Of a DNA stretch of 64,000 nucleotides, positions 24,923 through 37,177 are shown piece after piece; within the stretch, counting starts at the first letter, position 1, and the number at the start of each line of letters is the position of its first letter. Under the pieces are notes generated by a model. It had not been told where the DNA came from and searched no databases. It saw nothing but the letters and a program-made list of their open reading frames with translations. This stretch comes from Bacteroidaceae bacterium (lineage in GTDB: Bacteria > Bacteroidota > Bacteroidia > Bacteroidales > Bacteroidaceae): assembly GCA_963654235.1 (NCBI GenBank), contig CAVJZR010000001.1, positions 5,049 to 69,048 of the forward strand. The letters are read 5' to 3'. A program made the position numbers and the translations under genes.

Positions 24923-24986
24923 AATGTAAATGATAAAGCAGAAGGAGCTACATTGCTGTAACTCCTTCTGCTTTATCATTTACATT
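24923..24986 (-). terminator. 25-bp perfect inverted repeat downstream of the RiPP-operon OMP gene
   Basis: AATGTAAATGATAAAGCAGAAGGAG (24923-24947) and its exact reverse complement (24962-24986), with a 14-nt loop. About 35 nt past the stop at 25022. Confidence 0.7.
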
Positions 24987-25021: not shown

Positions 25022-27280
25022 TCAGAGAGAGATGCCCTTCTCTTGGCTCTTTATCTTGTTCTCATCAATATTGATCTTGCTTTTCTTATTCTTACGCATG
25101 GTCCATCGAACGGTCATGCGAAGTTCTCGGTTCGAATTGACAACATGACTGATACGGTCATATCCATCGACATGGTAGTGCTGATCGTATTTGGTCTTAC
25201 CAAATGTCTGGCTGCTACCGAGAATGAAGATAAGGTCTGGAGTGATGTTATAAGAAACATAGACGGCGCTAGAATATGGACCTCTATAACTTGTTTCTGC
25301 ATAAGGAGTATAGGACTTGTTCTGATAAGAAATATCGCTCTCGACATGGAAGCCCTTATAATTCCACATAACGTAAGCGGACAAGCTAAAATACTTCTTA
25401 CACTTCTCACCTAGATATTTGATTAACCCATATTTGGCTGAAGCCGAAAAGTCCAACGTCTTATAGCTATACGTAGCCGTTTGCGAAACCGAAAAGCCAT
25501 GATAGCTGCCATAGTTCTTATAAGTGGAGTAATAAATGCCTTTGTCGTAATAAGAATAAGGGAGTATGAGGTCCTTTGAATAAACATAATCTACGGACGT
25601 GGAGGAACTGAATCCTGAAACATATATGTATTCCTTAAGACTCAATGAATGGGTTCGCTCTGGAACAAGCAGAGGATTACCACTTGAGAATATCAACGAA
25701 TCGGTAGAAGTGTTGTATGGATTCAACTTATCTATAGCTGGTTGTGAATTGGTCAGTTTATATTCTAACGACGTTTCGGATATTCCTTTTTCATAAGAGA
25801 TGTCCGCTGATATATTAGGACGCAAATACGAGTTCTTTACACCTGCAGAATTGAGGTGCATATAGTCGGCTCCTGCAGACAAAACAGAAGAGAAATCGCC
25901 CAACGACATAGACAAGGCTGTATAGAAGTATTCGTTTAAACTTTTAAACTTAAACTGGTTGGCCAAGCTCTCCTGCTTAATTCTATTAGTGGAGTAGTCG
26001 GTAGCGTTTCCGAAATCTAAAGAAAAGACTTTGCTTATCTCCCACGACAAATCCAGTTCTTGACTTAAGAAATGCCTTTTGGTTGAAAACATATCATCGT
26101 CTTGTATATCAGCTTTGCCTAACTGTTGAACCTCACTATTTGTTTGACTGTTATTATTAATCGTGTATCTAGCAGTGTTCTCTAAGGATAAATTCTTACC
26201 AAACTGATGCTTGTAATACAAAGATGATGTATAGACATGAGACCTAACAACCGACTTCTCATAGGAAGAATACTTCAACGAGTCAGAATTGGCATTGACG
26301 TGCCAACCTTTACTATCTGCGTCAGATGTGCTATGATTGTCATCGCCTTGGAAGCTAACAATGAAATAATCTTTCTTTGTAGGTCTCCACTTGATCATGG
26401 TTTGGTAGCTAAAATCATGGTTTCTGTCGTTTATGGCAGAATTATAATCTCTACTATAATCCGTTGATCGAATGTTTTTACTGGAGGAAGCATGATTATA
26501 ACGTTTCCACGTAGGACCTAGAGTAACATAAAGCGACAACTTGCTATTGCCAACTTCAAAGGTCGGGCCCGTCCATCCTGATTTCCAAGGAAATGTGTTG
26601 CCATACCCTAAGCGTAGATATGTGTAGAGAGATTTGGTCTGTTTCAGATGAATATTAACAATACGCTGGGCACCAGACCTTATGTATTTGGAACTAACGA
26701 CATCTATCACCTCTACCGATTCAATCCTAGACGGAGATATGGGAGAAAGTCCGGTATTCATCTTTGCTCCATCTACTAGGAACAAGATGCTTTTGCCATC
26801 ATCAGAACTTAGGCCTTCATTTATATAATCACTCCGCAACTTCGGAATTTCTTGCAACGCAATGTATGGGTTATTGCTTTTTACAGCATCTTCTGAAAGA
26901 AAGTAGATATGACCATAAGGAGTCTTTATTGGACGCCTATGTCCAACAACCGTAACCGAATCCATGCTTATGGTTGTTTCTTTCATTATGCCGTAATAGT
27001 TATTTTTTTCATGCAAGTCTATACTATCAGTAAGGGTCTCATAACCCAAGCAATGTACAAATAGGGCCACCTTTGCGTCTGGTAAATCATCAATAGCATA
27101 AGAACCCTCACCATCACTACCTCCTATTGCGATCACAGAATCATTAAGCGAAACGATGATTGTTGCCTTTTCAATAGGAGTAAAGTTGTTAGTCAGAATC
27201 TTACCTGACAACTTTATCGATTGGGAAAAAGACAATGCACAATATAAAACACAAAAGACTAGAAATATTGTTCGCTTCAT
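25022..27280 (-). CDS. Outer-membrane beta-barrel protein, TonB-dependent-receptor-like (CarboxypepD_reg-like N-domain + plug-like region + barrel)
   Basis: 752 aa. Signal peptide; N-terminal KLSGKILTNNFTPIEKATIIV...GSYAIDDL fold-type motif; plug-like ALQEIPKL...LVDGAKM...IESVEVI; long alternating beta-strand-like C-terminal region. The ATG is 1 nt after the maturase stop. Confidence 0.7.
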   Translation of the reverse strand: MKRTIFLVFCVLYCALSFSQSIKLSGKILTNNFTPIEKATIIVSLNDSVIAIGGSDGEGSYAIDDLPDAKVALFVHCLGYETLTDSIDLHEKNNYYGIMKETTISMDSVTVVGHRRPIKTPYGHIYFLSEDAVKSNNPYIALQEIPKLRSDYINEGLSSDDGKSILFLVDGAKMNTGLSPISPSRIESVEVIDVVSSKYIRSGAQRIVNIHLKQTKSLYTYLRLGYGNTFPWKSGWTGPTFEVGNSKLSLYVTLGPTWKRYNHASSSKNIRSTDYSRDYNSAINDRNHDFSYQTMIKWRPTKKDYFIVSFQGDDNHSTSDADSKGWHVNANSDSLKYSSYEKSVVRSHVYTSSLYYKHQFGKNLSLENTARYTINNNSQTNSEVQQLGKADIQDDDMFSTKRHFLSQELDLSWEISKVFSLDFGNATDYSTNRIKQESLANQFKFKSLNEYFYTALSMSLGDFSSVLSAGADYMHLNSAGVKNSYLRPNISADISYEKGISETSLEYKLTNSQPAIDKLNPYNTSTDSLIFSSGNPLLVPERTHSLSLKEYIYVSGFSSSTSVDYVYSKDLILPYSYYDKGIYYSTYKNYGSYHGFSVSQTATYSYKTLDFSASAKYGLIKYLGEKCKKYFSLSAYVMWNYKGFHVESDISYQNKSYTPYAETSYRGPYSSAVYVSYNITPDLIFILGSSQTFGKTKYDQHYHVDGYDRISHVVNSNRELRMTVRWTMRKNKKSKINIDENKIKSQEKGISL

Positions 27281-27281
27281 A

Positions 27282-28550
27282 TTATTCTCTTTTAAGTTTA
27301 TTTGTAACCAAATACCTGAAGTATTCCTGTTTGCTTATATTAAGCGACTTCAGATAACATTCTGTATGACCAACTTTAATTTGATTGGGGCAAGGCCCAT
27401 AACAAGAAGGAAACCTTCTGCATGATAAACATTCATCTGGACTTTTCGTGGAGTAGTCATACGCCAGTTTTGATTCATTCCATATTATTTGCCCCGTCTG
27501 AGTATCCAATTTACCATAAGCATTTGTTTGATTAAAATCTGATATAGTTGTACATTTGAAGACTTGCCCGTCATAATTTATAACTGCTTCATTATAGCGT
27601 TCACCAAAACACAATTTTCCTTGAGTATAGTAATCAACACTAAAACCTTCTCCATTGAGTTTTTCAATTGTACTATTGACTATTTCATTATTAATATTTT
27701 CGTGATTTACTTGCCAAACTCTTTTTACAATAATAACAGTTCTACGCCTGTCTAATTCTTTGATTCTAGCCAATATCTCGTCAAAACTTTCTAACGTATT
27801 CTCATCAAAGTTGATTCTAAGGAACAACATAGATGAAGGAATCTTTTCTTGAATCAACTTCATATTCTGAAAAGTCAGAGTAAATAAATCTTTACTCCTA
27901 TCCTTTGTATGCTTTACCTTATTATGTTGTTCTTTATTACCATCAATAGTTATTTGAAATTGACATGATAAATCCGAAAGAAAATCTATGTTCTTTGCAT
28001 CTAGCAAGGTTCCGTTAGTGGTAAAATCAAGATATAACGAAATGCCTCTCTTGATGCAAACATTCTTCGCTCTTTCTATAATATCCTTTATTGCAGGATA
28101 GTTGTAGAAAGGTTCTCCTCCAAAGAAAGATAATTTTAATGTAGAGAAAGGCTCGTTATTACACTTCCAAATGATATGCTTTATAATACCATCAGACACT
28201 TCTTTGCTTATTTTGCTACCTTTATACCTTCGCTCGTAACAATACCAACAAGATAAGTTGCAGTCAAGCGTTGGATTGACAATTAAATGGTAAAGGGATT
28301 TATCATATAGTTCGGTGCTTCTTCTAAATTGTACTATATCTTTTTCATTATAATCATCCTCTACTATGAAATCCATTCTTTTAAGAGAATCCCATAAATC
28401 CTGATATTGCTCTACAGAGCTATTAGGTATGTTTTCATAAAATTCATGACCTTCATGGTCTAAGATAACAATTGCGCCATTAAAATAATTAATGTGTAAG
28501 AAAACGCCATCTTGTATCTCGCAACTATCTTGGTAATATATTTTTCTCAT
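27282..28550 (-). CDS. Radical SAM / SPASM-domain peptide maturase
   Basis: 422 aa. CX3CX2C at DCNLSCWYC. SPASM pattern C-x13-G-x4-C (CFGERYNEAVINYDGQVFKC) and CX2CX5CX3C (CLSCRRFPSCYGPC) plus a trailing Cys. Confidence 0.9.
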   Translation of the reverse strand: MRKIYYQDSCEIQDGVFLHINYFNGAIVILDHEGHEFYENIPNSSVEQYQDLWDSLKRMDFIVEDDYNEKDIVQFRRSTELYDKSLYHLIVNPTLDCNLSCWYCYERRYKGSKISKEVSDGIIKHIIWKCNNEPFSTLKLSFFGGEPFYNYPAIKDIIERAKNVCIKRGISLYLDFTTNGTLLDAKNIDFLSDLSCQFQITIDGNKEQHNKVKHTKDRSKDLFTLTFQNMKLIQEKIPSSMLFLRINFDENTLESFDEILARIKELDRRRTVIIVKRVWQVNHENINNEIVNSTIEKLNGEGFSVDYYTQGKLCFGERYNEAVINYDGQVFKCTTISDFNQTNAYGKLDTQTGQIIWNESKLAYDYSTKSPDECLSCRRFPSCYGPCPNQIKVGHTECYLKSLNISKQEYFRYLVTNKLKRE

Positions 28551-28579
28551 ATAATTGGAAGCGTGTGTTCTTTTATTTC

Positions 28580-28622
28580 AAAAAGTATTTCTCCTTTTTG
28601 TATGGTAGAAGAAATACTTTTT
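28580..28622 (-). terminator. Intra-operon hairpin between precursor and maturase genes (candidate partial terminator/attenuator)
   Basis: 13-bp stem AAAAAGTATTTCT (28580-28592) / AGAAATACTTTTT (28610-28622) with a 17-nt loop, in the 81-nt gap between the two genes. Confidence 0.5.
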
Positions 28623-28631
28623 GAATTGCTA

Positions 28632-28910
28632 TTAATAACACGTTTTATTGTCGTTGACAGCAGTACACATAGGCGTATTATTGATGCTGGAACATTCCTT
28701 GGCACTATTAATAGCTGAACAAGTATTGTTGTGATTAATGACTGAGCATATATCCTTGTTATTTATAACATCACAATGCTTTGCGTCATTACTTGCCGTA
28801 CACTTATTACCATTATTAATTTGATCATAAAGAGATTCTCCACCTCTTATAGCCAACATATGCTTCTTGGTCAATTCTTCTAATTCTTTTGCGTTGAATA
28901 TTTGCTTCAT
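28632..28910 (-). CDS. RiPP precursor peptide: double-glycine leader + Cys-x3-Asn nonapeptide-repeat core
   Basis: 92 aa. The leader MKQIFNAKELEELTKKHMLAIRGG has hydrophobic residues at -4, -7, -12 and -15. Core Cys at residues 37, 46, 55, 64, 73, 82 and 91 (exact period 9). Asn at Cys+4 in six repeats. Sits immediately upstream of the rSAM/SPASM gene. Confidence 0.8.
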   Translation of the reverse strand: MKQIFNAKELEELTKKHMLAIRGGESLYDQINNGNKCTASNDAKHCDVINNKDICSVINHNNTCSAINSAKECSSINNTPMCTAVNDNKTCY

Positions 28911-28979: not shown

Positions 28980-28987
28980 CAAAGTTA
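28980..28987 (-). promoter_or_regulatory. -7 promoter box (TAACTTTG on the minus strand) for the precursor operon
   Basis: Matches the Bacteroidota TAnnTTTG consensus about 70 nt upstream of the precursor ATG. Confidence 0.5.
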
Positions 28988-29015: not shown

Positions 29016-29108
29016 ATATATCTAAAAACACTTCAAACGCATAATCAGATAACCTACTGTATTCCAACCGTTTAAACGAATATGTTACATTTTTAGATAT
29101 CTAAATGT
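29016..29108. promoter_or_regulatory. Candidate operator: three ATATCTAAA(AA) half-sites, including a near-palindrome centred on GATATC
   Basis: ATATCTAAAAA at 29018-29028. ACATTTTTAGATATCTAAATGT at 29087-29108 is a palindrome apart from 2 extra T. Confidence 0.3.
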
Positions 29109-29125
29109 GACATATTAGAAACTCC

Positions 29126-30691
29126 TTAGAAGTTTTCTATGAATTCTCTTGCCGAACCATCGCTTCTTCCTAATCCTAGTTTAGGTTTTATTAGATACAG
29201 CTTCTGTCTGACAGAACTTTCTTCAATGTGGTAAATCTTCGCTATTCTATGTATAGGTAATCTTAGCCTTATAAGCATAAGAAAACGAATATCTTTTTGT
29301 GTAAGGGAAGGGAAACTCTCTTTAAGTCTTTCTACAAAATGGTTGTCTGTATTATCTAGATAAGCTATAAGTTCGTCCCATTCTTCTGTGTTCAACACAA
29401 TCCGCTTCTCTTCTCCTTCATTCATTCTCTTGCTCTCCGCTTTTAACTTATTCACAACATCTACATTCTTCAAAAGAATATTACGAACGTTTACTATCTG
29501 CGATTCTTTGATTTCTACTTCCTTTTTGCATTTTACCATCTTCTCTTCTGTAGTTCTCTTTCTCACATAAAATAGTCTTAGGACAAGCAACATAACACCC
29601 CATGAAAGTATTAATAGTATACTTATAAAGATTATGACCCCTGAGTGCTCTCTTTGTGTTACGGAAGTCTTTTCTAAAAGGATTTGGCTATCTTTGGTTG
29701 CACGTTCCTTTGTGTATTTCCTATTTATATATAATTCTGTGGAATCAGCATAATCATCTACTTGTTTATAGTTCTTTTCAGACAATGCGATGAATTGTCG
29801 TAATGAGAATAAGATATCACCGTAATCAGCATAATCTTCCTGTTTAATATGAGAGAGCAAAGACTTTGCAGCCCCTAACGAGTCTGCTTGACAAAAAGCA
29901 TTTTCCAAAGACAATAAAGAGATAATATCCTTTGATGGGTTGTATGAGAAGGATTCTTTTGCCATCTTCACGGCAGAACCTTCATTACCACACATTCGAT
30001 AGAACACTGATAGGTGATGAAAAACATCAGAGATGGCAGAAGAATCATTGATTTCTTTAGCATATTCGAGAATGTTTCTCGCCAACAAGATGCTTTTCTC
30101 TCTTTCGCTAGGCTTGGAAGCGTAACATTGAGCTAAGTTCAAGACCATATATACCTTATTAGCATCACGATTGCCTTTGATATGATCATATACATCGCAA
30201 GCTAACTGCGCATAGTTTATTGCTTTATCAGCATCATAACCTCTGAGAACAACTGACGTTTGAACGTAACACTTGCTTTGCGTCAAATAATCGTGGTTTC
30301 GTTTGGCGGCAGTAGCAGAACGACTAAAAAGATTCAGCGCTTTTGAGGTATTACCATTCAAAGCATAGTGCTTGCCCATATAGTACATGCTTTTGGCATA
30401 AAGAGAATCCTCTGACCTATCTTTATAATAAGCATAAGCGACGAGAAGAAGCGAATCGTTGTTGCTTTCTATCCCTAACTTATCTTGAGCCATTGTATAT
30501 ACAAGCGCATACATTGCCATATTGCTATCCGAAAGTCGGGTTTGATCAACTTGGTTTAGCAATGCAATTGCACTATCAGGCTTTTGTTCTACCAAAGATA
30601 ACGCGGCCGAGATGCGTGTGTTGTTTTGAGCACAAGACATTATAACAGCAAGCCCAAGTGCTAAAGCCAACATCTTGTTTAAACTTTTCAT
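29126..30691 (-). CDS. Membrane-anchored regulator: lipoprotein signal, TPR-like domain, one TM helix, C-terminal LuxR/GerE-like HTH
   Basis: 521 aa. LAVIMSC lipobox-like signal, TM VIIFISILLILSWGVMLLVLRLF, C-terminal LTQKDIRFLMLIRLRLPIHRIAKIYHIEESSVRQKLYLIKPKLG. Minus-strand TAATTTTG box at 30720-30727. Confidence 0.7.
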   Translation of the reverse strand: MKSLNKMLALALGLAVIMSCAQNNTRISAALSLVEQKPDSAIALLNQVDQTRLSDSNMAMYALVYTMAQDKLGIESNNDSLLLVAYAYYKDRSEDSLYAKSMYYMGKHYALNGNTSKALNLFSRSATAAKRNHDYLTQSKCYVQTSVVLRGYDADKAINYAQLACDVYDHIKGNRDANKVYMVLNLAQCYASKPSEREKSILLARNILEYAKEINDSSAISDVFHHLSVFYRMCGNEGSAVKMAKESFSYNPSKDIISLLSLENAFCQADSLGAAKSLLSHIKQEDYADYGDILFSLRQFIALSEKNYKQVDDYADSTELYINRKYTKERATKDSQILLEKTSVTQREHSGVIIFISILLILSWGVMLLVLRLFYVRKRTTEEKMVKCKKEVEIKESQIVNVRNILLKNVDVVNKLKAESKRMNEGEEKRIVLNTEEWDELIAYLDNTDNHFVERLKESFPSLTQKDIRFLMLIRLRLPIHRIAKIYHIEESSVRQKLYLIKPKLGLGRSDGSAREFIENF

Positions 30692-31202: not shown

Positions 31203-33749
31203 CTAGATTGAACAACTGATTTTACAAAGTATTGCACGCGGGCGAAGCGTATTGATGGTAAACGTCCGAAGATAGTCACTTATTACTGTTCGTTCATAAT
31301 GGATTGTTCCAAAAACATTGGTGCATGAAAGCCCCAGTTCATAGCTTTTGGTACGATAGCTTACGTTTACATCACAGAAATAATTGTTACTGATCGTTGC
31401 GTCATTGCTATGGTAATATTCATTTCTCCATTCTATTTGCCATTTGCCTGGCATGAAGATCACGTCAACGGAATGGCAGAAATAGTTCAAGGCAGAACGG
31501 CTGATAGCTTGATCGGGAGATTTCTGAACAATATTGTTCCATCTGCTTTTCCCTTCTACGGATAGCCATGTGCTCGGATGCCACAATAGTTCCAACCCCA
31601 TATAGCCTTTGCGTTGTTTCATCAGCGTTTTATTTCCGCTTATCATAAGGTAGTACTGATACCAACTGATGTTACCTGTTAGAGCTAACGATAGCTTTCC
31701 CCAACCTATCGACTTAGCAATTCGACCGTTAAGGATGTAAGAGCTGGTATTACCTTCGTTCGTCGTCGCTCTTCTAACGTAGATTCCATCCATATACGAA
31801 CTGCTATAAAGTATATTGTTGCTAGAACGGTTATAAGAGAAAGACGTACTAGCAGAAAAGCCATGAACAGGATTGGTATATTGCCAATTGTTGCTCACAA
31901 GATGAACGTTTGAACTTACAAGTCGTCCAAGCCCCTCCACCAATGTAATATAATCAGTATAGATGGGTGACGACGAAATGGCATCCAACGAACCGGGACT
32001 CCATATATAAAGGTAATCAAGATGCGTTTTGAGATATGGACTTAAGCTATACTCCAACGACACTGTTGGTTCAAAAGCTATGTGTTGTTTGTTGGCTTCA
32101 TTGAAACATCTGCTATTCCAACTTAGTTTTGCTATGGCGCTTAAGCTAAGCAATCTTGACTTATAGGAAAATGATGGACTGGCATAAAGTTTCAGCAAGC
32201 TATATCTGTCTTTGTTACTAGTATAATGGTTTTCTATGCCTTGATGATAGTTGTCATATTCTTCGCCAATGGTCCATGCGATGTAAGATCTAGCAACCTT
32301 ATGTCTAAAATACGCAGACGTTTTCACAGATAGGTGATGAATTCCAAGATATTCCCCACTTCCATTCATCAATAGGACGTAGCCCGGAAGGAAGCTGTAC
32401 CTTAACTTGGTGTTAAAGGAAACACTATGCCCACCATAAAGATTTCTGATAAGCCGAAGGGTGTTAGCAATATATCGTTTTCTTGGTTCTACGTCTTGTT
32501 TTACATCTGAGCCATTCAGCAAGGTTGCTCCTCGTGAGTAGTTAAAGTCCATGTATCCTTTAAGACTATTGCTCAGATATGTTTTATCCGAGTTCAACTT
32601 ATAAAGCAGTTCGCCTTTCCATTCATTGCGTTTGCTGAATGCATTTCTGCTTTCAGAGATCATCGCTCCGTCCGATGTGGCATCTAGGAAAGTAGTCTGT
32701 CTGAACATATTCTGTTGAGTCTTATCTAAGAGTCCATCTAGTTGAAATCGAAGGTCAGCATTATCGGTTGGTTTGAAAAGCCAGTTGGTTGCAAAAACAC
32801 GCGAATCATTGAATGCGTACCTTTTCATCTCTAGCGATGGCGCTTGAATGATGATAGAGCTAAGACGTTCTCCGTCATCGGTCATCAAGTCGTTAGCTGA
32901 CAAATCGGTTATTTCATGTCCGATGTCCTTACCCGTGTTATTGGTCTTATACATGCTTATGCTTTGGCGTTTATGAGCAAAAAGCATGGCCATAAGTCTT
33001 GCATCACGAAGCCATTCGCCTTTGCCTTGCAACGTATGTCCACCTGCGACATCAAGCACCCCTTGCCAAACATTCTTAGCATCGTCTTTCAACACAATAT
33101 TCAATGCGGCTTGATCACTAAAACTAACATCACGCAGCGCGCGTACTGGTTGATGATTATTAAGCACTTGTACCTTACTCACTTTGGTAGCATCGATATT
33201 TTCGCTTGCTAAAGAGTATTTGCCGCCTAGCAAGTCCATGCCTTCAATATAGAATTTGTTTATCGGTTGATCATTGACAACAATCTGCCCGCTCGGTCTC
33301 ACTTCGACACCTGGTATTTTGGAAAGCACATCAGCAATACTACGATCTTGCTTCTGCATATACGCTGAGACAAGATAAGTAACCGTGTCACCCTCTATCT
33401 TTGCCCTGTCTGGCATGACCTTTACTTCCTTTAACTCGAATGCTTTTTCATGAAGAATGTATGTAGCGCCTTCTTTGAATTTATCCAAAGGCAATGTAAT
33501 ATCCGCATAGCCCATCTTCCGAAGCCGAATAGATTGTGTCTGCTTCTTTTCTGGACAAACCACCATGAAGCTTCCGTCTTGTTTGCTTTGCGCATAAGCT
33601 ACAGGACAATTGTTGTAAAGCAAGGCTATCGTTACACCCGAAAGAGCATTGCCTATCGTATCTACAATGACGCCACGATATCTTTGCGCAGAGCTAAGGG
33701 TGACTCCGAGCACATTTAAGAAAAATACGATGGCAAATAATCTTCTCAT
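31203..33749 (-). CDS. Outer-membrane beta-barrel protein, TonB-dependent-receptor-like (second copy of the CarboxypepD_reg/plug/barrel architecture)
   Basis: Start set at MRRLFAIVFFLNVLGV (signal peptide); the ORF extends to 33782. YRGVIVDTIGNALSGVTIAL N-domain and a plug-like region (SIADVLSKIPGVEV...FYIEGMDLLGGKY). Confidence 0.7.
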   Translation of the reverse strand: MRRLFAIVFFLNVLGVTLSSAQRYRGVIVDTIGNALSGVTIALLYNNCPVAYAQSKQDGSFMVVCPEKKQTQSIRLRKMGYADITLPLDKFKEGATYILHEKAFELKEVKVMPDRAKIEGDTVTYLVSAYMQKQDRSIADVLSKIPGVEVRPSGQIVVNDQPINKFYIEGMDLLGGKYSLASENIDATKVSKVQVLNNHQPVRALRDVSFSDQAALNIVLKDDAKNVWQGVLDVAGGHTLQGKGEWLRDARLMAMLFAHKRQSISMYKTNNTGKDIGHEITDLSANDLMTDDGERLSSIIIQAPSLEMKRYAFNDSRVFATNWLFKPTDNADLRFQLDGLLDKTQQNMFRQTTFLDATSDGAMISESRNAFSKRNEWKGELLYKLNSDKTYLSNSLKGYMDFNYSRGATLLNGSDVKQDVEPRKRYIANTLRLIRNLYGGHSVSFNTKLRYSFLPGYVLLMNGSGEYLGIHHLSVKTSAYFRHKVARSYIAWTIGEEYDNYHQGIENHYTSNKDRYSLLKLYASPSFSYKSRLLSLSAIAKLSWNSRCFNEANKQHIAFEPTVSLEYSLSPYLKTHLDYLYIWSPGSLDAISSSPIYTDYITLVEGLGRLVSSNVHLVSNNWQYTNPVHGFSASTSFSYNRSSNNILYSSSYMDGIYVRRATTNEGNTSSYILNGRIAKSIGWGKLSLALTGNISWYQYYLMISGNKTLMKQRKGYMGLELLWHPSTWLSVEGKSRWNNIVQKSPDQAISRSALNYFCHSVDVIFMPGKWQIEWRNEYYHSNDATISNNYFCDVNVSYRTKSYELGLSCTNVFGTIHYERTVISDYLRTFTINTLRPRAILCKISCSI

Positions 33750-33760
33750 GCAGTAAGCGT

Positions 33761-34564
33761 TTATGGTTTCTCTATAAGGCACGCTTCCTTATTTCGAGGC
33801 GATTTGCGGTTTCCTTGAGCATCATACGTAGTGCCACGAAATCCCCAAACTCGTTGCATAGCTGCATCCTCGTCTTTAGCCTCAAGGGTAAGAAGGTTGG
33901 CAAGCTGTTTAGCATCACAATGCTTGTATTCTTTCTTTATCGGTTCGAACGTGCTACGCTTGTTGTTACCTTCTATCCCAATAGCGTCAAAGACAAAGTC
34001 CCCTTCTATATCCTTCGCATAAAGAATAAGTCCTGGCAAACCACATAGCTTCCAAGGCCCGTCATCAATAGCTATATCTGGCGTATAGTAAACTATCCAT
34101 GTACGTCCTCGATACGTCGTTTCTGCTTTATAAGCAGCATATCCCAATATAATGGTATCGCTATCTATCAAACGCCATTCAAACTGTGGCATTGGTTCTT
34201 CGTACTTAAAATCATCCCATACCTTGCTGATGTAAGTAAGTGTGCCAGTAGAAGGATAGTTTTTAAACACCTCGATATTAGTGTTCTGCCGTAGTAAATC
34301 CATCTTTTTAAGAACGCTTATAACGTCATAACCGCTATAACCTAAGCGTAACAGACTATCCTTAACTACCTCTCCACGATAATTATCTAGACAATAAAAA
34401 CAAGAAACATCGTCTGAAATATCAAGAACGTTAGTACAAACCATTGGGCTCGCATCGTTTTTGTATTTATGGAAAGTAGTGCTGTACGTCACGCTTATCC
34501 CCCAACATACATTGTAGGAGAAAAGAATCATAAAGAGGAATAATATATTAATTATCTTTGGCAT
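33761..34564 (-). CDS. GLPGLI family protein
   Basis: 267 aa with a signal peptide. Contains the family-defining motif (WKLCGLPGLILYA). Confidence 0.8.
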   Translation of the reverse strand: MPKIINILFLFMILFSYNVCWGISVTYSTTFHKYKNDASPMVCTNVLDISDDVSCFYCLDNYRGEVVKDSLLRLGYSGYDVISVLKKMDLLRQNTNIEVFKNYPSTGTLTYISKVWDDFKYEEPMPQFEWRLIDSDTIILGYAAYKAETTYRGRTWIVYYTPDIAIDDGPWKLCGLPGLILYAKDIEGDFVFDAIGIEGNNKRSTFEPIKKEYKHCDAKQLANLLTLEAKDEDAAMQRVWGFRGTTYDAQGNRKSPRNKEACLIEKP

Positions 34565-34635
34565 ATGCTAATTGAATAAAAGCATTCCACGTTCGTCACG
34601 TTTTTACAAGAGACAAACGTGGAATGCATTCTTAT

Positions 34636-34851
34636 TTAGAACATTCCATATTCTGGATGTTCAGAATACCAAGCCTGATAGATACTAATAATCTGTTCGT
34701 TTGTAAGTACACAATCAAACACTATGTAATCTCCATTTTCAAACACTACCACAGTTCTTTGCGGCTCATCTCTATTGGTAGCATTAGCCGTTGAAAAAGG
34801 ATTGCCCAAAAGTGCTAATGCTAAACCAAGTGTTAATATAAATCTTTTCAT
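34636..34851 (-). CDS. Small secreted hypothetical protein (72 aa from the MKRFILTLGLALALLG start)
   Basis: Clear signal peptide at the internal Met; the longer listed ORF (to 34929) overlaps the upstream gene. Confidence 0.4.
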   Translation of the reverse strand: MKRFILTLGLALALLGNPFSTANATNRDEPQRTVVVFENGDYIVFDCVLTNEQIISIYQAWYSEHPEYGMF

Positions 34852-34909
34852 TGTTTTAACTTTTTTAAAAATGTAATTGTTATAGCGTTGTGCACTTCGC
34901 TTGTTTTGT

Positions 34910-35284
34910 TCATAAGTCCAAACAACCATAGTAGTTGATGTTTTCTTTGTTTACTTGTACATAATACCTACCTTTAAACAAGGTTGGCAAAACAACATAT
35001 TCTTGAGAAACATCAACGTCTAAAGAGCAGACGACTTCTCCCTCGGTAGTTACAATCTCTAGATGACTTGGTTTCAACGTTTCATTAAGCCAAATCCGTT
35101 CACCATCATAATACACATATGCATCATTTGCGTTGGGCATCCGTTGAAGTGGCTTGCTAGACTTTGTATCATCGACGTAATAAGTACGCATTACTATTAC
35201 GTAAATGTCACCATTCTGTCTAGTTTGGGCTTGTAATAGGAAGATTGGTGCAAATAGTATAACCAACAATACTTTCCTTATCAT
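34910..35284 (-). CDS. Small secreted protein; the C-terminal part resembles a T9SS-CTD/DUF3244-type beta-sandwich (tentative)
   Basis: 124 aa. Signal peptide MIRKVLLVILFAPIFLLQAQ. C-terminal LPTLFKGRYYVQVNKENINYYGCLDL. Minus-strand TATTTTTG box about 35 nt upstream. Confidence 0.45.
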   Translation of the reverse strand: MIRKVLLVILFAPIFLLQAQTRQNGDIYVIVMRTYYVDDTKSSKPLQRMPNANDAYVYYDGERIWLNETLKPSHLEIVTTEGEVVCSLDVDVSQEYVVLPTLFKGRYYVQVNKENINYYGCLDL

Positions 35285-35455
35285 CCTTTTATCTTTATCA
35301 TTATATGTTATTATATTGCAAAAATAAAGATAAAAGATTAAGCGGTAAACTTTAATGAGTACACTTAGTACACTTTACGCAAAAGAAGAGTTCTACTTCT
35401 TGTCAGCAAATCCGTGTATCTTAGACAACTAACTCTAGAAATACACATTGTACAC

Positions 35456-37177
35456 CTACAATCCTGTTTTATAAATATTAGAAGTAAATGTTTTAGAGCC
35501 CATATCCCCAAACAATGTTTTGTTTAGTTTTGCACGAAGATTCGTCATTCTCTGCTTAGAAATATCAAGTAATACGGAAATTTCAGATGGTATAAAGTGT
35601 AATCTTGTGAGGATACACACTTTTCTTTCCTGTTCTGTTAATGAAAAGTTTTTGTCGTCAATAAAGTCGTAAAATTTAAACAATGACACCTTTACAATAT
35701 CGTAAAGTTCTTCCCATTCCATATTCGTTGGCCGTTTTATAGTTGAAGCATACTTATGAAATTGTAATACCATCGTATGCTCCATAAGATTTCTTTCAGC
35801 CTCTTTATCAGAAGCGAGAAACTTTCCTGTGTACGATGATAATAGGGTTGAAAGCCTGTTGATTTGATCTTCCTTGTCCTTCTTACTTTTTTCAACATCC
35901 ACTTCCAATTTCCGTAGTTCTTCCAATGCCGCATAATATTGCTGAAGTATCTCTATGTATTTTAAATTATAGATTCTCAGTTCTTGTTTTCGCTTCTTCT
36001 TCCTACTATTGATCAAGAAGCTAGTAGCTACAACTATTACAATCAATAATAATATTAGTAAGATGCAGTAAAAATGATATTCTTTCGCTTCAGCAGCTTT
36101 TTTATCAGCTACTTTTTGCTTTTCTGAGTAATTATAAAGGGATTGCGCTTTGCTAATCTCATCGGCAGAATGAATCACATTGGCAGAATCATTAATAATA
36201 GTAAAGAGCTTTGCGTATTTTACTACAGAATCGATCTCATTCAATTGGGAATAGTCTTCCATGAGTCCTCTATACGCATTTTCTTGACTGTTTAGGTCTG
36301 TAGAACAAGAGGCTAGCTTTCTATAATAGTATAAAGAAGAATCTAGATTGAGCGTTTCTTTATAATAGCGTCCCATATAATAATAGAAGAACTCATGTCC
36401 TTGTGTTAGCTCTCCATTACTAAAAAGCCCAGAATGAAGTATGTACTCAGTAATCTGCTTCTTTGCTAAATTCAGATGTTTGTTCTCTATATTATTATCA
36501 ATTTGGATACCAAGCGATGCGGCAGCATAGTCCTTTCTGCCTATTTTCTTATATTCATTATATGTATCCTTCGCCACCTTCAAGGCTTTGGATTTATTTC
36601 CCCACAAAAGATATGCGCCTACACATCGCTCCTTTAACTGAATAGCCATTAATGTATCACTACACATGAGAGCATATTTTCGTGCCATATTCCAATAATA
36701 CATTTCTTCCTGAGGCATTCTTTGTTCATGAAACAAAGATGCTATTTGCCCATATATTCTAGGAAGTTCTTTTGAAGGACTTACTGTATCTGCAACCTCC
36801 ACAGCTTTCAAATAAAACTTAATTGCAGAAGGACAATCACCTTTATCACGATAGACGCATCCCATCATATAGGATGCATTCATTGTTTCTATTTCGCTAC
36901 CATTCGAATCATAATAACGTAGTACTTCATCCATGAAAGATATCGTATCCATCGGGATATATGCTTTATTCATTGCTTCTGCGTATATCAGTAGGTATTT
37001 CATTCGGTTTCGACGACTGAAGTTCTTTAGACTACTCCATTTGTTCTTTAGGATGACGTATGCTGAATCAGGTTGCTTTTCTAATAAGGAAGAAGCTTCT
37101 ACTATCACCTTAGGTGTTGTAGGATTCTCGCAAGAAACCATAAGAATAAAAAACAAAAAATATAGTATGCGTTTCAT
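35456..37177 (-). CDS. Membrane-anchored regulator, paralog of 29126..30691 (lipoprotein signal, TPR-like, TM, LuxR/GerE-like HTH)
   Basis: 573 aa. FILMVSC signal, TM FYCILLILLLIVIVVATSFLI, coiled-coil region, C-terminal LTEQERKVCILTRLHFIPSEISVLLDISKQRMTNLRAKLNKTLFG. Confidence 0.7.
   Translation of the reverse strand: MKRILYFLFFILMVSCENPTTPKVIVEASSLLEKQPDSAYVILKNKWSSLKNFSRRNRMKYLLIYAEAMNKAYIPMDTISFMDEVLRYYDSNGSEIETMNASYMMGCVYRDKGDCPSAIKFYLKAVEVADTVSPSKELPRIYGQIASLFHEQRMPQEEMYYWNMARKYALMCSDTLMAIQLKERCVGAYLLWGNKSKALKVAKDTYNEYKKIGRKDYAAASLGIQIDNNIENKHLNLAKKQITEYILHSGLFSNGELTQGHEFFYYYMGRYYKETLNLDSSLYYYRKLASCSTDLNSQENAYRGLMEDYSQLNEIDSVVKYAKLFTIINDSANVIHSADEISKAQSLYNYSEKQKVADKKAAEAKEYHFYCILLILLLIVIVVATSFLINSRKKKRKQELRIYNLKYIEILQQYYAALEELRKLEVDVEKSKKDKEDQINRLSTLLSSYTGKFLASDKEAERNLMEHTMVLQFHKYASTIKRPTNMEWEELYDIVKVSLFKFYDFIDDKNFSLTEQERKVCILTRLHFIPSEISVLLDISKQRMTNLRAKLNKTLFGDMGSKTFTSNIYKTGL

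What the first reader, a model, noticed from the sequence alone, without database searches (positions are those of the whole stretch)
28632..28910. Precursor core is a strict 9-residue repeat: seven Cys at exact period 9, six in C-x3-N motifs
**Seen in the sequence.**
- After the leader ...LAIRGG, the core reads NKCTASNDA-KHCDVINNK-DICSVINHN-NTCSAINSA-KECSSINNT-PMCTAVNDN-KTCY.
- Cys lies at residues 37/46/55/64/73/82/91, and Asn at 41/50/59/68/77/86, always Cys+4.
- The DNA shows a degenerate 27-nt periodicity (ATTATTGATGCTGGAACA / CTATTAATAGCTGAACA / TGATTAATGACTGAGCA), which suggests internal duplication.

**Established knowledge, from memory.**
- Freyrasin-type ranthipeptides carry repeated C-x3-D motifs crosslinked Cys-S to Asp C-beta.
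- An NxxC system forms Cys-Asn beta-thioethers.

**Inference.** There are six tandem Cys-to-Asn macrocycles, possibly with a free or capping C-terminal Cys. That would be a CX3N variant not known from Bacteroidota. The leader's hydrophobic residues at -4/-7/-12/-15 fit the double-glycine leader consensus.
Basis: partly seen in the sequence, partly recalled or inferred. Interest (0 to 1): 0.85.

Follow-up and report, generated by a model that had tools for sequence, protein, structure and literature searches.

The report
Asn–Cys repeat peptide with radical-SAM maturase
This small gene encodes the precursor of an undescribed, widespread family of gut-Bacteroidales modified peptides, built from repeated Asn-x4-Cys units that the neighbouring radical-SAM enzyme probably ties into a string of small sulfur-bridged rings.

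Summary
The 92-aa ORF (28632-28910, minus strand) has Cys at 37/46/55/64/73/82/91, each of the first six followed by Asn at +4.

It is a double-glycine-leader precursor. It heads a three-gene operon: precursor, radical SAM/SPASM enzyme (27282-28550), outer-membrane beta-barrel (25022-27280).

In 81 distinct homologous precursors (381 Cys):
- Asn lies 5 residues before the Cys in 91%.
- The first Cys has Asn at -5 in 71/81.
- The last Cys has Asn at +4 in only 7/81.
- Where the spacing stretches to 11-12 residues, Asn follows the downstream Cys.

So the unit is [I/V]-N-x4-C. The window peptide has seven complete units (N32-C37 to N86-C91) and no spare Cys.

The enzyme reaches no curated NCBIfam cut-off. 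Its closest solved fold is the thioether-forming CteB. No family model, source annotation or paper found describes these precursors.

Most likely product, inferred and not shown: seven tandem Cys-S-to-Asn thioether rings. Relatives in Prevotella, Segatella copri, Parabacteroides and Muribaculaceae add a C39 peptidase or peptidase-transporter; this window has none.

This is a new variant of a known kind and a good experimental lead.

The parts
29126..30691 (-). 521-aa putative one-component regulator: N-terminal signal or lipoprotein-like sequence, TPR region, one hydrophobic segment (about residues 350-375), and a C-terminal helix-turn-helix-like tail.
   Evidence: Translation. Only a weak TPR_12 Pfam hit. 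TPR-regulator homologues lie upstream of the precursor/rSAM in L001, L002, L018, L033, L034, L082-L086 and L089-L091. The TM and HTH assignments come from reading the sequence and are inferred.
29079..29116 (.). Inverted repeat (14-nt arms, 93% complementary, 10-nt spacer) between the regulator stop codon and the precursor promoter. Possibly an operator or the end of the regulator transcript.
   Evidence: I2. Function not tested.
28980..28987 (-). TAACTTTG, a match to the Bacteroides-type -7 promoter box TAnnTTTG, 69 nt upstream of the precursor ATG.
   Evidence: The consensus is from my own knowledge of Bacteroides promoters. This is a motif match only.
28839..28910 (-). Double-glycine leader, residues 1-24 (MKQIFNAKELEELTKKHMLAIRGG).
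   Evidence: The family leader consensus is [LI]-L-E-x-h-S-x-[ED]-[GH]-M-x-x-h-x-G-G across 81 precursors.
28635..28838 (-). Core peptide, residues 25-92. The stop codon is at 28632-28634.
28638..28817 (-). Seven tandem [I/V/S]-N-x4-C units: N32-C37, N41-C46, N50-C55, N59-C64, N68-C73, N77-C82, N86-C91.
   Evidence: The unit register comes from 81 homologues.
28577..28625 (-). 19-bp perfect stem-loop in the 81-nt gap between precursor and rSAM gene. Probably a partial terminator or transcript-stabilising hairpin that raises the precursor-to-enzyme ratio.
   Evidence: -22.4 kcal/mol, z = -6.5, 0 of 200 shuffles fold as well. The role is inferred.
27282..28550 (-). 422-aa radical SAM/SPASM peptide maturase with an N-terminal RRE-like domain (three strands then three helices, residues about 7-81). 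It carries the CX3CX2C motif (C97, C101, C104) and a 7-Cys SPASM pattern (C314, C333, C374, C377, C383, C387, C398).
   Evidence: (invariant Cys in 28 homologues).
25022..27280 (-). 752-aa outer-membrane beta-barrel (CarboxypepD_reg-like N-domain, weak Plug, OMP_b-brl_3). Its start lies 1 nt after the rSAM stop.
   Evidence: A homologue follows the rSAM gene directly in about 30 loci and in L082-L091.
24932..24977 (-). 20-bp stem-loop followed by a T-rich tail, 45 nt after the OMP stop. Probably the operon terminator.

Best explanation
The ORF is the precursor of a ribosomally made, post-translationally modified peptide.

**Proposed pathway**
1. The N-terminal RRE-like domain of the adjacent radical SAM/SPASM enzyme binds the double-glycine leader (residues 1-24).
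2. The enzyme then works along seven independent [I/V]-N-x4-C units.
3. In each unit it most likely joins the Cys sulfur to the Asn five residues upstream, at C-beta (as NxxcB does) or at C-alpha.
4. The product would be a 'beads on a string' peptide of seven six-residue thioether rings, 14 Da lighter than the precursor and with no free thiol.
5. A C39 peptidase or peptidase-containing ABC transporter cuts after GG. Relatives encode one in the cluster; this genome must encode it outside the window.
6. The conserved outer-membrane barrel moves the peptide across the outer membrane. Export is the more likely direction; re-uptake or sensing is possible.

**Shown**
- The repeat itself and the family-wide N(-5)-C register.
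- The precursor-rSAM-OMP synteny.
- The enzyme's cluster motifs and its CteB-like fold.

**Inferred**
- That the enzyme modifies this peptide.
- That the modification is a thioether, and that Asn is the acceptor.
- The atom attacked, the cleavage site, the direction of transport and the biological role.
For: **Register**
- In 81 distinct precursors with 381 Cys, Asn is at Cys-5 in 346 and Asp in 8.
- The first Cys has Asn at -5 in 71/81. The last Cys has Asn at +4 in 7/81 (smaller sets).
- In spacings of 11-12, Asn tracks the downstream Cys in 5 of 6 cases.
- N32 is a nearly invariant alignment column.

**Independent units**
- Near-identical alleles differ by whole 9-residue units: L006 has 5 Cys, P0174 has 4 and P0178 has 3. 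This fits independent, non-nested rings.

**Enzyme**
- CX3CX2C plus the 7-Cys SPASM pattern are invariant in 28 homologues.
- Radical_SAM and Fer4_12 Pfam hits pass their cut-offs.
- The best NCBIfam neighbours are Cys-rich-peptide maturases, including PapB and the SCIFF maturase.
- The best PDB sequence hit is CteB, 5wgg, E 5.5e-20.
- The AF2 model has pLDDT 89. Its top fold hits are CteB, E 4e-16 and TM 0.62-0.67.

**Context**
- Precursor-rSAM-OMP order recurs in about 30 genome loci.
- C39 or PCAT genes complete the cluster in L085-L091.
- The operon is bounded by a promoter box and a terminator hairpin.

**Chemical precedent**
- NxxcB links Cys to the beta-carbon of an Asn that lies N-terminal of the Cys, and it tolerates Asp (PMC9389541, read).
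Against: - No chemistry is shown. Sequence cannot tell a thioether from other radical SAM reactions.
- The second-best fold match, TigE, makes cyclopropylglycine on a repeat peptide (title of PMC9062424 listed). A repeat substrate plus a SPASM fold therefore does not prove a thioether.
- Identity to CteB is only about 20%. Every NCBIfam score is far below its cut-off (118 bits or less, against 300-855).
- The Pfam SPASM score (21.2) is just under the gathering score of 21.5.
- In period-9 units one Asn is both Cys+4 and Cys-5. The register argument rests on terminal units and on the minority of longer spacings.
- Two period-10/11 units break the -5 rule: L001 CDTINSAKKDC and L014 CDVINNSTSDNC.
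- Asn could be a recognition or turn residue rather than the acceptor.
- No C39 or PCAT gene is detectable anywhere in the 64-kb window (tblastn), so leader removal here is unexplained.
Confidence: 0.5

Rival explanations
1. Six Cys(i)-to-Asn(i+4) rings (C-x3-N, five-residue rings, freyrasin-like orientation), with C91 free or capping.
For: Within the window alone the data fit equally well, because each interior Asn is both +4 and -5. Freyrasin/PapB sets a precedent for C-x3-D (my own knowledge; the PapB abstract states Cys/Asp links). In period-10 units Asn is present at +4 in 36/42.
Against: The last Cys lacks Asn at +4 in 74/81 precursors, while the first Cys has Asn at -5 in 71/81. In spacings of 11 or more, +4 is kept in 1 of 6 and -5 in 5 of 6. 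This model leaves one conserved Cys and one conserved Asn (N32, at least 90% conserved) without a role in every family member.
Confidence: 0.12
2. Thioether rings from Cys to some residue other than Asn, for example a sactionine to a variable C-alpha acceptor. The Asn would serve only as a recognition or turn element that positions each unit in the active site.
For: Sactipeptide acceptors are not conserved in type (my own knowledge). The enzyme is about as distant from sactisynthases (RumMC, 55 bits) as from ranthisynthases. Positions -6/-7 (I/V/T) and -2 (G) are also biased.
Against: Asn(-5) is the only non-Cys position conserved above 90%. Its most frequent replacements are Asp and Ser (8 each). 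Asp is chemically like Asn and is a known thioether acceptor, and NxxcB accepts it in place of Asn.
Confidence: 0.15
3. The rSAM enzyme does non-thioether chemistry on the repeats. Examples: epimerisation, C-C or C-O cross-link, a side-chain rearrangement such as TigE's cyclopropylglycine at the I/V before Asn, or Cys-derived heterocycles. The Cys would be left for disulfides or metal binding.
For: TigE (8vpo) is the second-best structural neighbour and acts on a repeat peptide. Close NCBIfam neighbours such as TIGR04463, geopeptide, Clo7bot and CefB have no product chemistry known to me. The I/V at -6 is common in the period-9 clade.
Against: The I/V is not conserved in the period-10 NNGxGxC clade, whereas Cys and Asn are. 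Units are defined by Cys, and unit number equals Cys number. The 7-Cys SPASM pattern with a single Cys ahead of the G-x4-C element resembles CteB-type enzymes more than the 8-Cys anSME type. That comparison is pattern-level inference, plus the statement in PMC10352776 that CteB has 7 SPASM Cys.
Confidence: 0.15
4. Not a substrate at all. The small ORF would be an unmodified Cys/Asn-rich secreted peptide, or a spurious ORF, and the rSAM enzyme would act on something else.
For: The exact 92-aa sequence is absent from the 15-billion-protein collection. A single-sequence word search found nothing.
Against: The gene was called on the Logan contig L081. 37 relatives appear in an exhaustive phmmer search and 30 in a profile search. 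A homologous GG-leader peptide sits directly upstream of the homologous rSAM in dozens of loci. The leader and the unit register are under clear purifying selection.
Confidence: 0.04

Closest known systems
NxxC RaS-RiPP system (NxxcA/NxxcB, Streptococcus)
   Same: A radical SAM/SPASM enzyme acts on a precursor. The acceptor Asn lies N-terminal of the donor Cys. The Cys-S to Asn-C-beta thioether is a documented reaction, and Asp is tolerated at the acceptor site (PMC9389541). This parallels the occasional Asp at -5 here.
   Different: The spacing is N-x4-C, not N-x2-C. There are three to eight tandem units rather than a single motif. The host is Gram-negative Bacteroidales, with a GG leader, an OMP and a C39/PCAT context rather than a streptococcal quorum-sensing operon. 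No NxxcB model appears among the 25 NCBIfam hits shown out of 57; direct sequence comparison with NxxcB was not possible.
Freyrasin / PapB ranthipeptides (Paenibacillus)
   Same: Several tandem, non-nested small thioether rings on a repeat core. Cys pairs with an Asx-type acceptor. PapB is among the nearer NCBIfam neighbours (97 bits).
   Different: The PapB model cut-off is 340 bits, so it is not met. Freyrasin's motif is C-x3-D with the donor N-terminal; here the conserved register is N-x4-C with the donor C-terminal. The acceptor is Asn, not Asp. The host is Bacteroidales, and the operon carries an outer-membrane barrel.
CteB / thermocellin and SCIFF-type ranthipeptide maturases
   Same: CteB is the best solved-structure match by sequence (E 5.5e-20) and by fold (TM 0.62-0.67). 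Both have an N-terminal RRE-like domain, a radical SAM core and a 7-Cys SPASM domain.
   Different: Identity is about 20%. The SCIFF maturase model scores 74 bits against a cut-off of 425. SCIFF precursors have six Cys in 45 residues without the N-x4-C repeat, and they occur in Clostridia.
GG-Bacteroidales rSAM system (NCBIfam TIGR04148 maturase, TIGR04149 target peptide)
   Same: Same phylum. GG-leader peptide plus radical SAM maturase.
   Different: The enzyme scores 70 bits against a cut-off of 300. None of eight family precursors hits TIGR04149 or any other NCBIfam model, even at E up to 10. This is a different clade.
Cys-repeat rSAM target families without known chemistry (CefA/CefB 'Cys-every-fifth', CXXX-repeat, TIGR04463 C-rich)
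   Same: Regularly spaced Cys repeats next to SPASM maturases. These are the top NCBIfam neighbours (113-118 bits).
   Different: All scores are far below their cut-offs (525-600). The period here is 9-10, with an obligatory Asn.

Membership tests
Double-glycine (GG) leader peptides | A 15-25 residue leader ending in GG, with hydrophobic residues at -4, -7, -12 and -15. | tested here: met
   G23-G24; I21 (-4), M18 (-7), L13 (-12), L10 (-15). The family consensus keeps h(-4), M(-7), h(-12), L(-15) and E(-14) in 81 sequences.
Double-glycine (GG) leader peptides | A cognate C39 peptidase or peptidase-containing ABC transporter in the cluster. | tested here: not met
   tblastn of the L085 C39 protein and the L087 PCAT against the whole window found nothing at E up to 0.01. 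The operon ends at a terminator after the OMP. The feature is met in relatives L085-L091.
Radical SAM / SPASM peptide maturases | CX3CX2C radical SAM cluster motif. | tested here: met
   C97-x3-C101-x2-C104, invariant in 28 homologues. Radical_SAM scores 54.6 bits against a cut-off of 29.5.
Radical SAM / SPASM peptide maturases | C-terminal SPASM domain with the seven-Cys pattern C-x9-15-G-x4-C ... C-x2-C-x5-C-x3-C ... C. | tested here: met
   C314-x13-G328-x4-C333; C374-x2-C377-x5-C383-x3-C387; C398. All seven Cys are invariant. The Pfam SPASM score is borderline, 21.2 against 21.5. The fold matches CteB and anSME.
Radical SAM / SPASM peptide maturases | N-terminal RiPP recognition element (three strands plus three helices). 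| tested here: inconclusive
   The AF2 model has strands 7-13, 16-21 and 26-31, then helices 32-39, 47-58 and 69-81, at pLDDT 84-95. The full-length alignment to CteB includes its N-domain. No dedicated RRE model was run.
Ranthipeptides, PapB/freyrasin type | The maturase reaches the PapB family model (NF047865, cut-off 340 bits). | tested here: not met
   97.3 bits.
Ranthipeptides, PapB/freyrasin type | Repeated C-x3-D (donor first) motif in the core. | tested here: not met
   The acceptor-type residue is Asn. The conserved register is N-x4-C, donor last.
Ranthipeptides / sactipeptides in general | A Cys-S to carbon thioether (non-alpha or alpha) in the mature peptide. | not testable with these tools
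   Needs MS and NMR on the modified peptide.
SCIFF system (TIGR03973 / TIGR03974) | The maturase reaches the TIGR03974 cut-off (425 bits), and the precursor is of the six-Cys-in-45 type. | tested here: not met
   73.8 bits. No NCBIfam hit for the precursor.
NxxC RaS-RiPPs | N-x-x-C motif, with Asn N-terminal of Cys. | tested here: not met
   The orientation matches but the spacing is N-x4-C. Asn is at Cys-3 in only about 10% of Cys.
NxxC RaS-RiPPs | Sequence membership of the enzyme in the NxxcB family. | not tested
   No NxxcB sequence was at hand. It is not among the 25 listed NCBIfam neighbours.
GG-Bacteroidales system (TIGR04148 / TIGR04149) | The maturase reaches the TIGR04148 cut-off (300 bits), and the precursor hits TIGR04149. 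| tested here: not met
   70.1 bits. No precursor hit at E up to 10 for eight family members.

The most novel reading that the evidence does not exclude
These peptides would define a new RiPP class that is abundant in human and animal gut Bacteroidales, including Segatella copri. A single radical SAM enzyme would install three to eight tandem Asn-to-Cys six-residue thioether macrocycles on an N-x4-C repeat, a ring size, orientation and acceptor combination not described before. Unit number would vary between strains. The system would have its own TonB-receptor-like outer-membrane barrel and a periplasm-sensing TPR regulator. That would make it a dedicated Gram-negative secretion-and-sensing circuit for a modified peptide, acting as a signal or as a narrow-spectrum antagonist.
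Probability: 0.35. Interest if true: 0.8.

Novelty: new variant of a known kind. Interest (0 to 1): 0.62.

Why it matters
- **Little is known in this group.** Radical-SAM-modified peptides are well studied in Firmicutes. Surveys of Bacteroidales report few, and none with this motif (PMC10352776; PMC13289728).
- **The family is common.** One precursor (P0169) occurs in 597 blocks of the assembly index. One maturase (P0094) occurs in 754 blocks. Members sit in Segatella copri, Prevotella, Parabacteroides, Bacteroides and Muribaculaceae.
- **It is unannotated.** It has no family model, and the only name any source gives it is 'hypothetical protein'.
- **The corrected register gives a sharp experiment.** It predicts seven rings and no free thiol, against six rings and one free thiol.
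- **If the chemistry holds,** it adds a new thioether topology and a modular, copy-number-variable scaffold. It would also be a peptide natural product from dominant gut Gram-negatives, with a conserved, dedicated outer-membrane component whose role could then be studied.

Tried and rejected
**Searches that found nothing**
- Tandem Repeats Finder on the DNA gave no array even at score 30. The repeat is a protein-level constraint or an old duplication, not a recent DNA repeat.
- A word-indexed search with the single precursor found nothing, not even itself. The exact sequence is not in the collection. The exhaustive phmmer search and a profile search were needed.
- NCBIfam and Pfam gave no hit on the precursor or on seven relatives, even at E up to 10.
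- A regex scan of all six frames found no other N-x4-C repeat peptide in the window.
- tblastn found no C39/PCAT gene and no DUF3244-like gene in the window.

**Literature (nine searches, six papers read)**
- Nothing describes an N-x4-C or C-x3-N Bacteroidales family.
- The one DUF3244 + radical SAM paper (PMC10434189) was irrelevant.
- The library lacks most subscription-journal papers, so prior description elsewhere cannot be excluded.

**Ideas dropped**
- Filing the enzyme under PapB, SCIFF, GG-Bacteroidales, CefB or TIGR04463 was rejected. All scores are far below their cut-offs.
- The three 633-aa ORFs in the window might have been a paralogous family. They are unrelated.
- The sigma-70-type promoter scan is uninformative here: 29 sites against 23.5 expected.
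Full report
**1. The observation**

The minus-strand ORF 28632-28910 translates to a 92-residue peptide:

MKQIFNAKELEELTKKHMLAIRGG-ESLYDQ-INNGNKC-TASNDAKHC-DVINNKDIC-SVINHNNTC-SAINSAKEC-SSINNTPMC-TAVNDNKTC-Y

- Equal spacing of seven Cys among 68 positions has a chance probability of about 4e-7. None of 200,000 shuffles of the core put Asn at -5 of every Cys.
- The quoted DNA strings are correct reverse complements.
- DNA self-identity peaks at lags 27 and 54 (0.49, against 0.22-0.40 elsewhere). The 27-nt units are only 52% identical on average, and Tandem Repeats Finder reports nothing. The DNA periodicity is real but weak.
- One slip matters. Ten residues (ESLYDQINNG) were skipped, and they contain N32.

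**2. Surroundings**

The peptide gene sits in a compact minus-strand unit.

| Element | Coordinates | Evidence |
|---|---|---|
| 521-aa TPR protein with one hydrophobic segment and an HTH-like tail | 29126-30691 | |
| Bacteroides-type TAnnTTTG box | 28980-28987 | |
| Precursor | 28632-28910 | |
| 19-bp hairpin (-22.4 kcal/mol, z = -6.5) | 28577-28625 | |
| 422-aa radical SAM/SPASM enzyme | 27282-28550 | |
| 752-aa CarboxypepD_reg/OMP_b-brl_3 outer-membrane barrel, starting 1 nt after the rSAM stop | 25022-27280 | |
| 20-bp terminator-like hairpin | 24932-24977 | |

- Downstream lie ribF and a CAAX protease, which are unrelated.
- The 64-kb window contains no C39 peptidase or peptidase-containing transporter.
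- Window GC is 47.4%. The nearest relatives of the enzyme are from uncultured Prevotella, so the source is a Bacteroidales bacterium, probably a Prevotellaceae. It is rare in public data: the enzyme cluster has two members.

**3. The enzyme**

- It has C97-x3-C101-x2-C104 and the seven-Cys SPASM pattern (C314, G328, C333; C374, C377, C383, C387; C398). All are invariant in an alignment of 28 homologues.
- No NCBIfam model reaches its cut-off. The best are TIGR04463 (118 bits against 525), geopeptide, Clo7bot, CefB, FlmE/OhkG and PapB (97 against 340). SCIFF scores 74 against 425, and GG-Bacteroidales TIGR04148 scores 70 against 300.
- The best solved structure by sequence is CteB (E 5.5e-20).
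- An AlphaFold2 model (pLDDT 89.3) matches CteB best (E 4e-16, TM 0.62-0.67). Next come TigE and anSME.
- The model's N-terminal three-strand, three-helix domain has the topology of a leader-binding RRE.

**4. Related loci and the repeat register**

- The enzyme has more than 1,300 relatives.
- A scan of one genome per species returned 80 loci. Almost every locus whose enzyme is at least 36% identical has a GG-leader, Cys/Asn-repeat peptide just upstream.
- The closest one (74% enzyme identity, L082) has seven units and the same regulator-precursor-rSAM-OMP order.
- An exhaustive phmmer search of 1.84 billion representatives with the window peptide found 37 hits, of which 32 were kept as GG-leader repeat precursors and 5 were set aside as unrelated repeat proteins or frameshifted fragments. 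A profile search added more.

The combined set has 81 distinct precursors with 381 core Cys.

| Measure | Result |
|---|---|
| Cys-to-Cys spacing | 9 (226 times), 10 (54), 11 (7), 12 (5) |
| Residue at Cys-5 | Asn in 346 (91%), Asp in 8 |
| First Cys | Asn at -5 in 71/81, Asp in 4 more |
| Last Cys | Asn at +4 in 7/81 |
| Intervals of 11 or more (30-sequence subset) | Asn at -5 of the next Cys in 5 of 6; at +4 of the previous Cys in 1 of 6 |

- Examples of the stretched intervals are CGGKVNNGSGKC and CNVEGALNKGTGC.
- N32 of the window peptide is a column at least 90% conserved.
- The conserved unit is therefore [I/V/T]-N-x4-C. The window peptide has seven complete units, N32-C37 through N86-C91, and C91 is not a spare residue.
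- Two sub-clades exist. One is a period-9 'C-x-x-I-N' type, which includes the window. The other is a period-10 'N-N-G-x-G-x-C' type.
- Enzymes below about 36% identity go with quite different cores, such as CGCGCG or G-x-G-C repeats. The motif co-varies with the enzyme clade.
- Near-identical alleles differ by whole 9-residue units: L006 has 5, P0174 has 4 and P0178 has 3.

**5. Conserved context**

- An OMP homologue directly follows the enzyme gene in about 30 loci.
- TPR-regulator homologues are frequent upstream.
- Many loci have a small DUF3244 protein between regulator and precursor. The window does not.
- In L085/L086 a stand-alone C39 peptidase follows the OMP. In L087-L091 a full C39-ABC transporter does.
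- The canonical cluster is regulator / DUF3244 / precursor / rSAM / OMP / C39 or PCAT. The window carries a reduced version.

**6. Most likely mechanism**

Shown:
- A GG-leader repeat peptide is co-inherited with a CteB-like SPASM enzyme and an outer-membrane barrel.
- The only conserved core residues are Cys and the Asn five residues before it.

Inferred:
- The enzyme binds the leader and makes one Cys-S to Asn thioether per unit. That would give seven six-residue rings, 14 Da lighter, with no free thiol.
- The leader is then cut after GG by a C39 domain encoded elsewhere, and the barrel passes the product through the outer membrane.
- The precedent is NxxcB, which links Cys to the beta-carbon of an Asn N-terminal of it and accepts Asp (PMC9389541).

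My estimates:
- About 0.85 that this is a genuine rSAM-modified precursor.
- About 0.5 for the full statement, including Asn-Cys thioethers in the N-x4-C register.

**7. Comparison with known systems**

- It works most like the NxxC and freyrasin systems. It is not a member of either, nor of SCIFF, nor of the GG-Bacteroidales family, because their defining models and motifs were tested and not met.
- Sources give the precursors no name other than 'hypothetical protein', and they have no Pfam domain.
- Surveys of Bacteroidales RiPPs (PMC10352776), rumen bacteriocins (PMC13289728) and human-microbiome RiPPs (PMC11953309) do not describe this motif.
- The paper library is incomplete, so prior description in a subscription journal cannot be excluded.

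**8. Verdict**

- The finding is real and non-random. It belongs to a large, unannotated family.
Its register and ring count should be corrected.
- It is a new variant of a known kind. Interest is moderate to high, mainly as a directly testable lead in abundant gut bacteria.

Noticed in passing
window 28577-28625 (minus strand): A perfect 19-bp stem-loop lies between the precursor stop and the rSAM start (-22.4 kcal/mol, z = -6.5). It is not followed by a clean U-run. It could attenuate read-through or stabilise the precursor transcript.
   Followed up: partly
window 31203-37177 (minus strand): A second cassette with a parallel layout lies just upstream. It has a 573-aa TPR protein (a weak paralogue of the 521-aa one), a 124-aa protein, a 267-aa Porph_ging/GLPGLI-like protein and an 859-aa protein with no Pfam hit. 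It has no rSAM gene and no repeat peptide. Homologues of the 859-aa protein follow the more distant rSAM enzymes in L044-L058 and lie upstream of the regulator in L082.
   Followed up: partly
L006 3621-3902; P0170, P0174, P0178: Near-identical precursor alleles differ only by exact 9-residue DVINNxxxC units, giving 5, 4 and 3 Cys. This is unit copy-number polymorphism within one lineage.
   Followed up: partly
L087 5629-19812 and L088 3936-18041: One very common gut contig (the enzyme P0094 is listed in 754 index blocks) carries three consecutive pairs of an rSAM gene followed by a large protein (one a recognised OMP_b-brl_3 barrel, two with no Pfam hit) and a single PCAT. Only the middle pair has an N-x4-C precursor.
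   Followed up: no
L041-L079, upstream of the rSAM match: Enzymes only 28-35% identical sit next to GG-leader peptides with other Cys cores. Examples are CGCGCGCG (L043), GLGCGNGCGSGCGGC (L048, L059, L079), NCRCNGDNCDCNG (L061, L062), and longer Cys-rich cores (L045-L047). This looks like a wider Bacteroidales superfamily of uncharacterised rSAM peptides.
   Followed up: no
window 29079-29116: A 14-nt inverted repeat (AATATGTTACATTT / AAATGTGACATATT, 10-nt spacer) lies between the regulator stop and the precursor promoter. It may be an operator or a transcript end.
   Followed up: no
L006, L011, L040, L060 (record titles): Contigs carrying this Bacteroidales-type cluster are labelled Clostridia bacterium, Oribacterium, Alistipes and Roseburia MAGs. 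These are probably binning errors rather than horizontal transfer.
   Followed up: no
L085 7983-8336; L018 3309-3674; other loci: A small secreted DUF3244 protein (about 105-125 aa) often sits between the TPR regulator and the precursor. The window cluster lacks it.
   Followed up: partly
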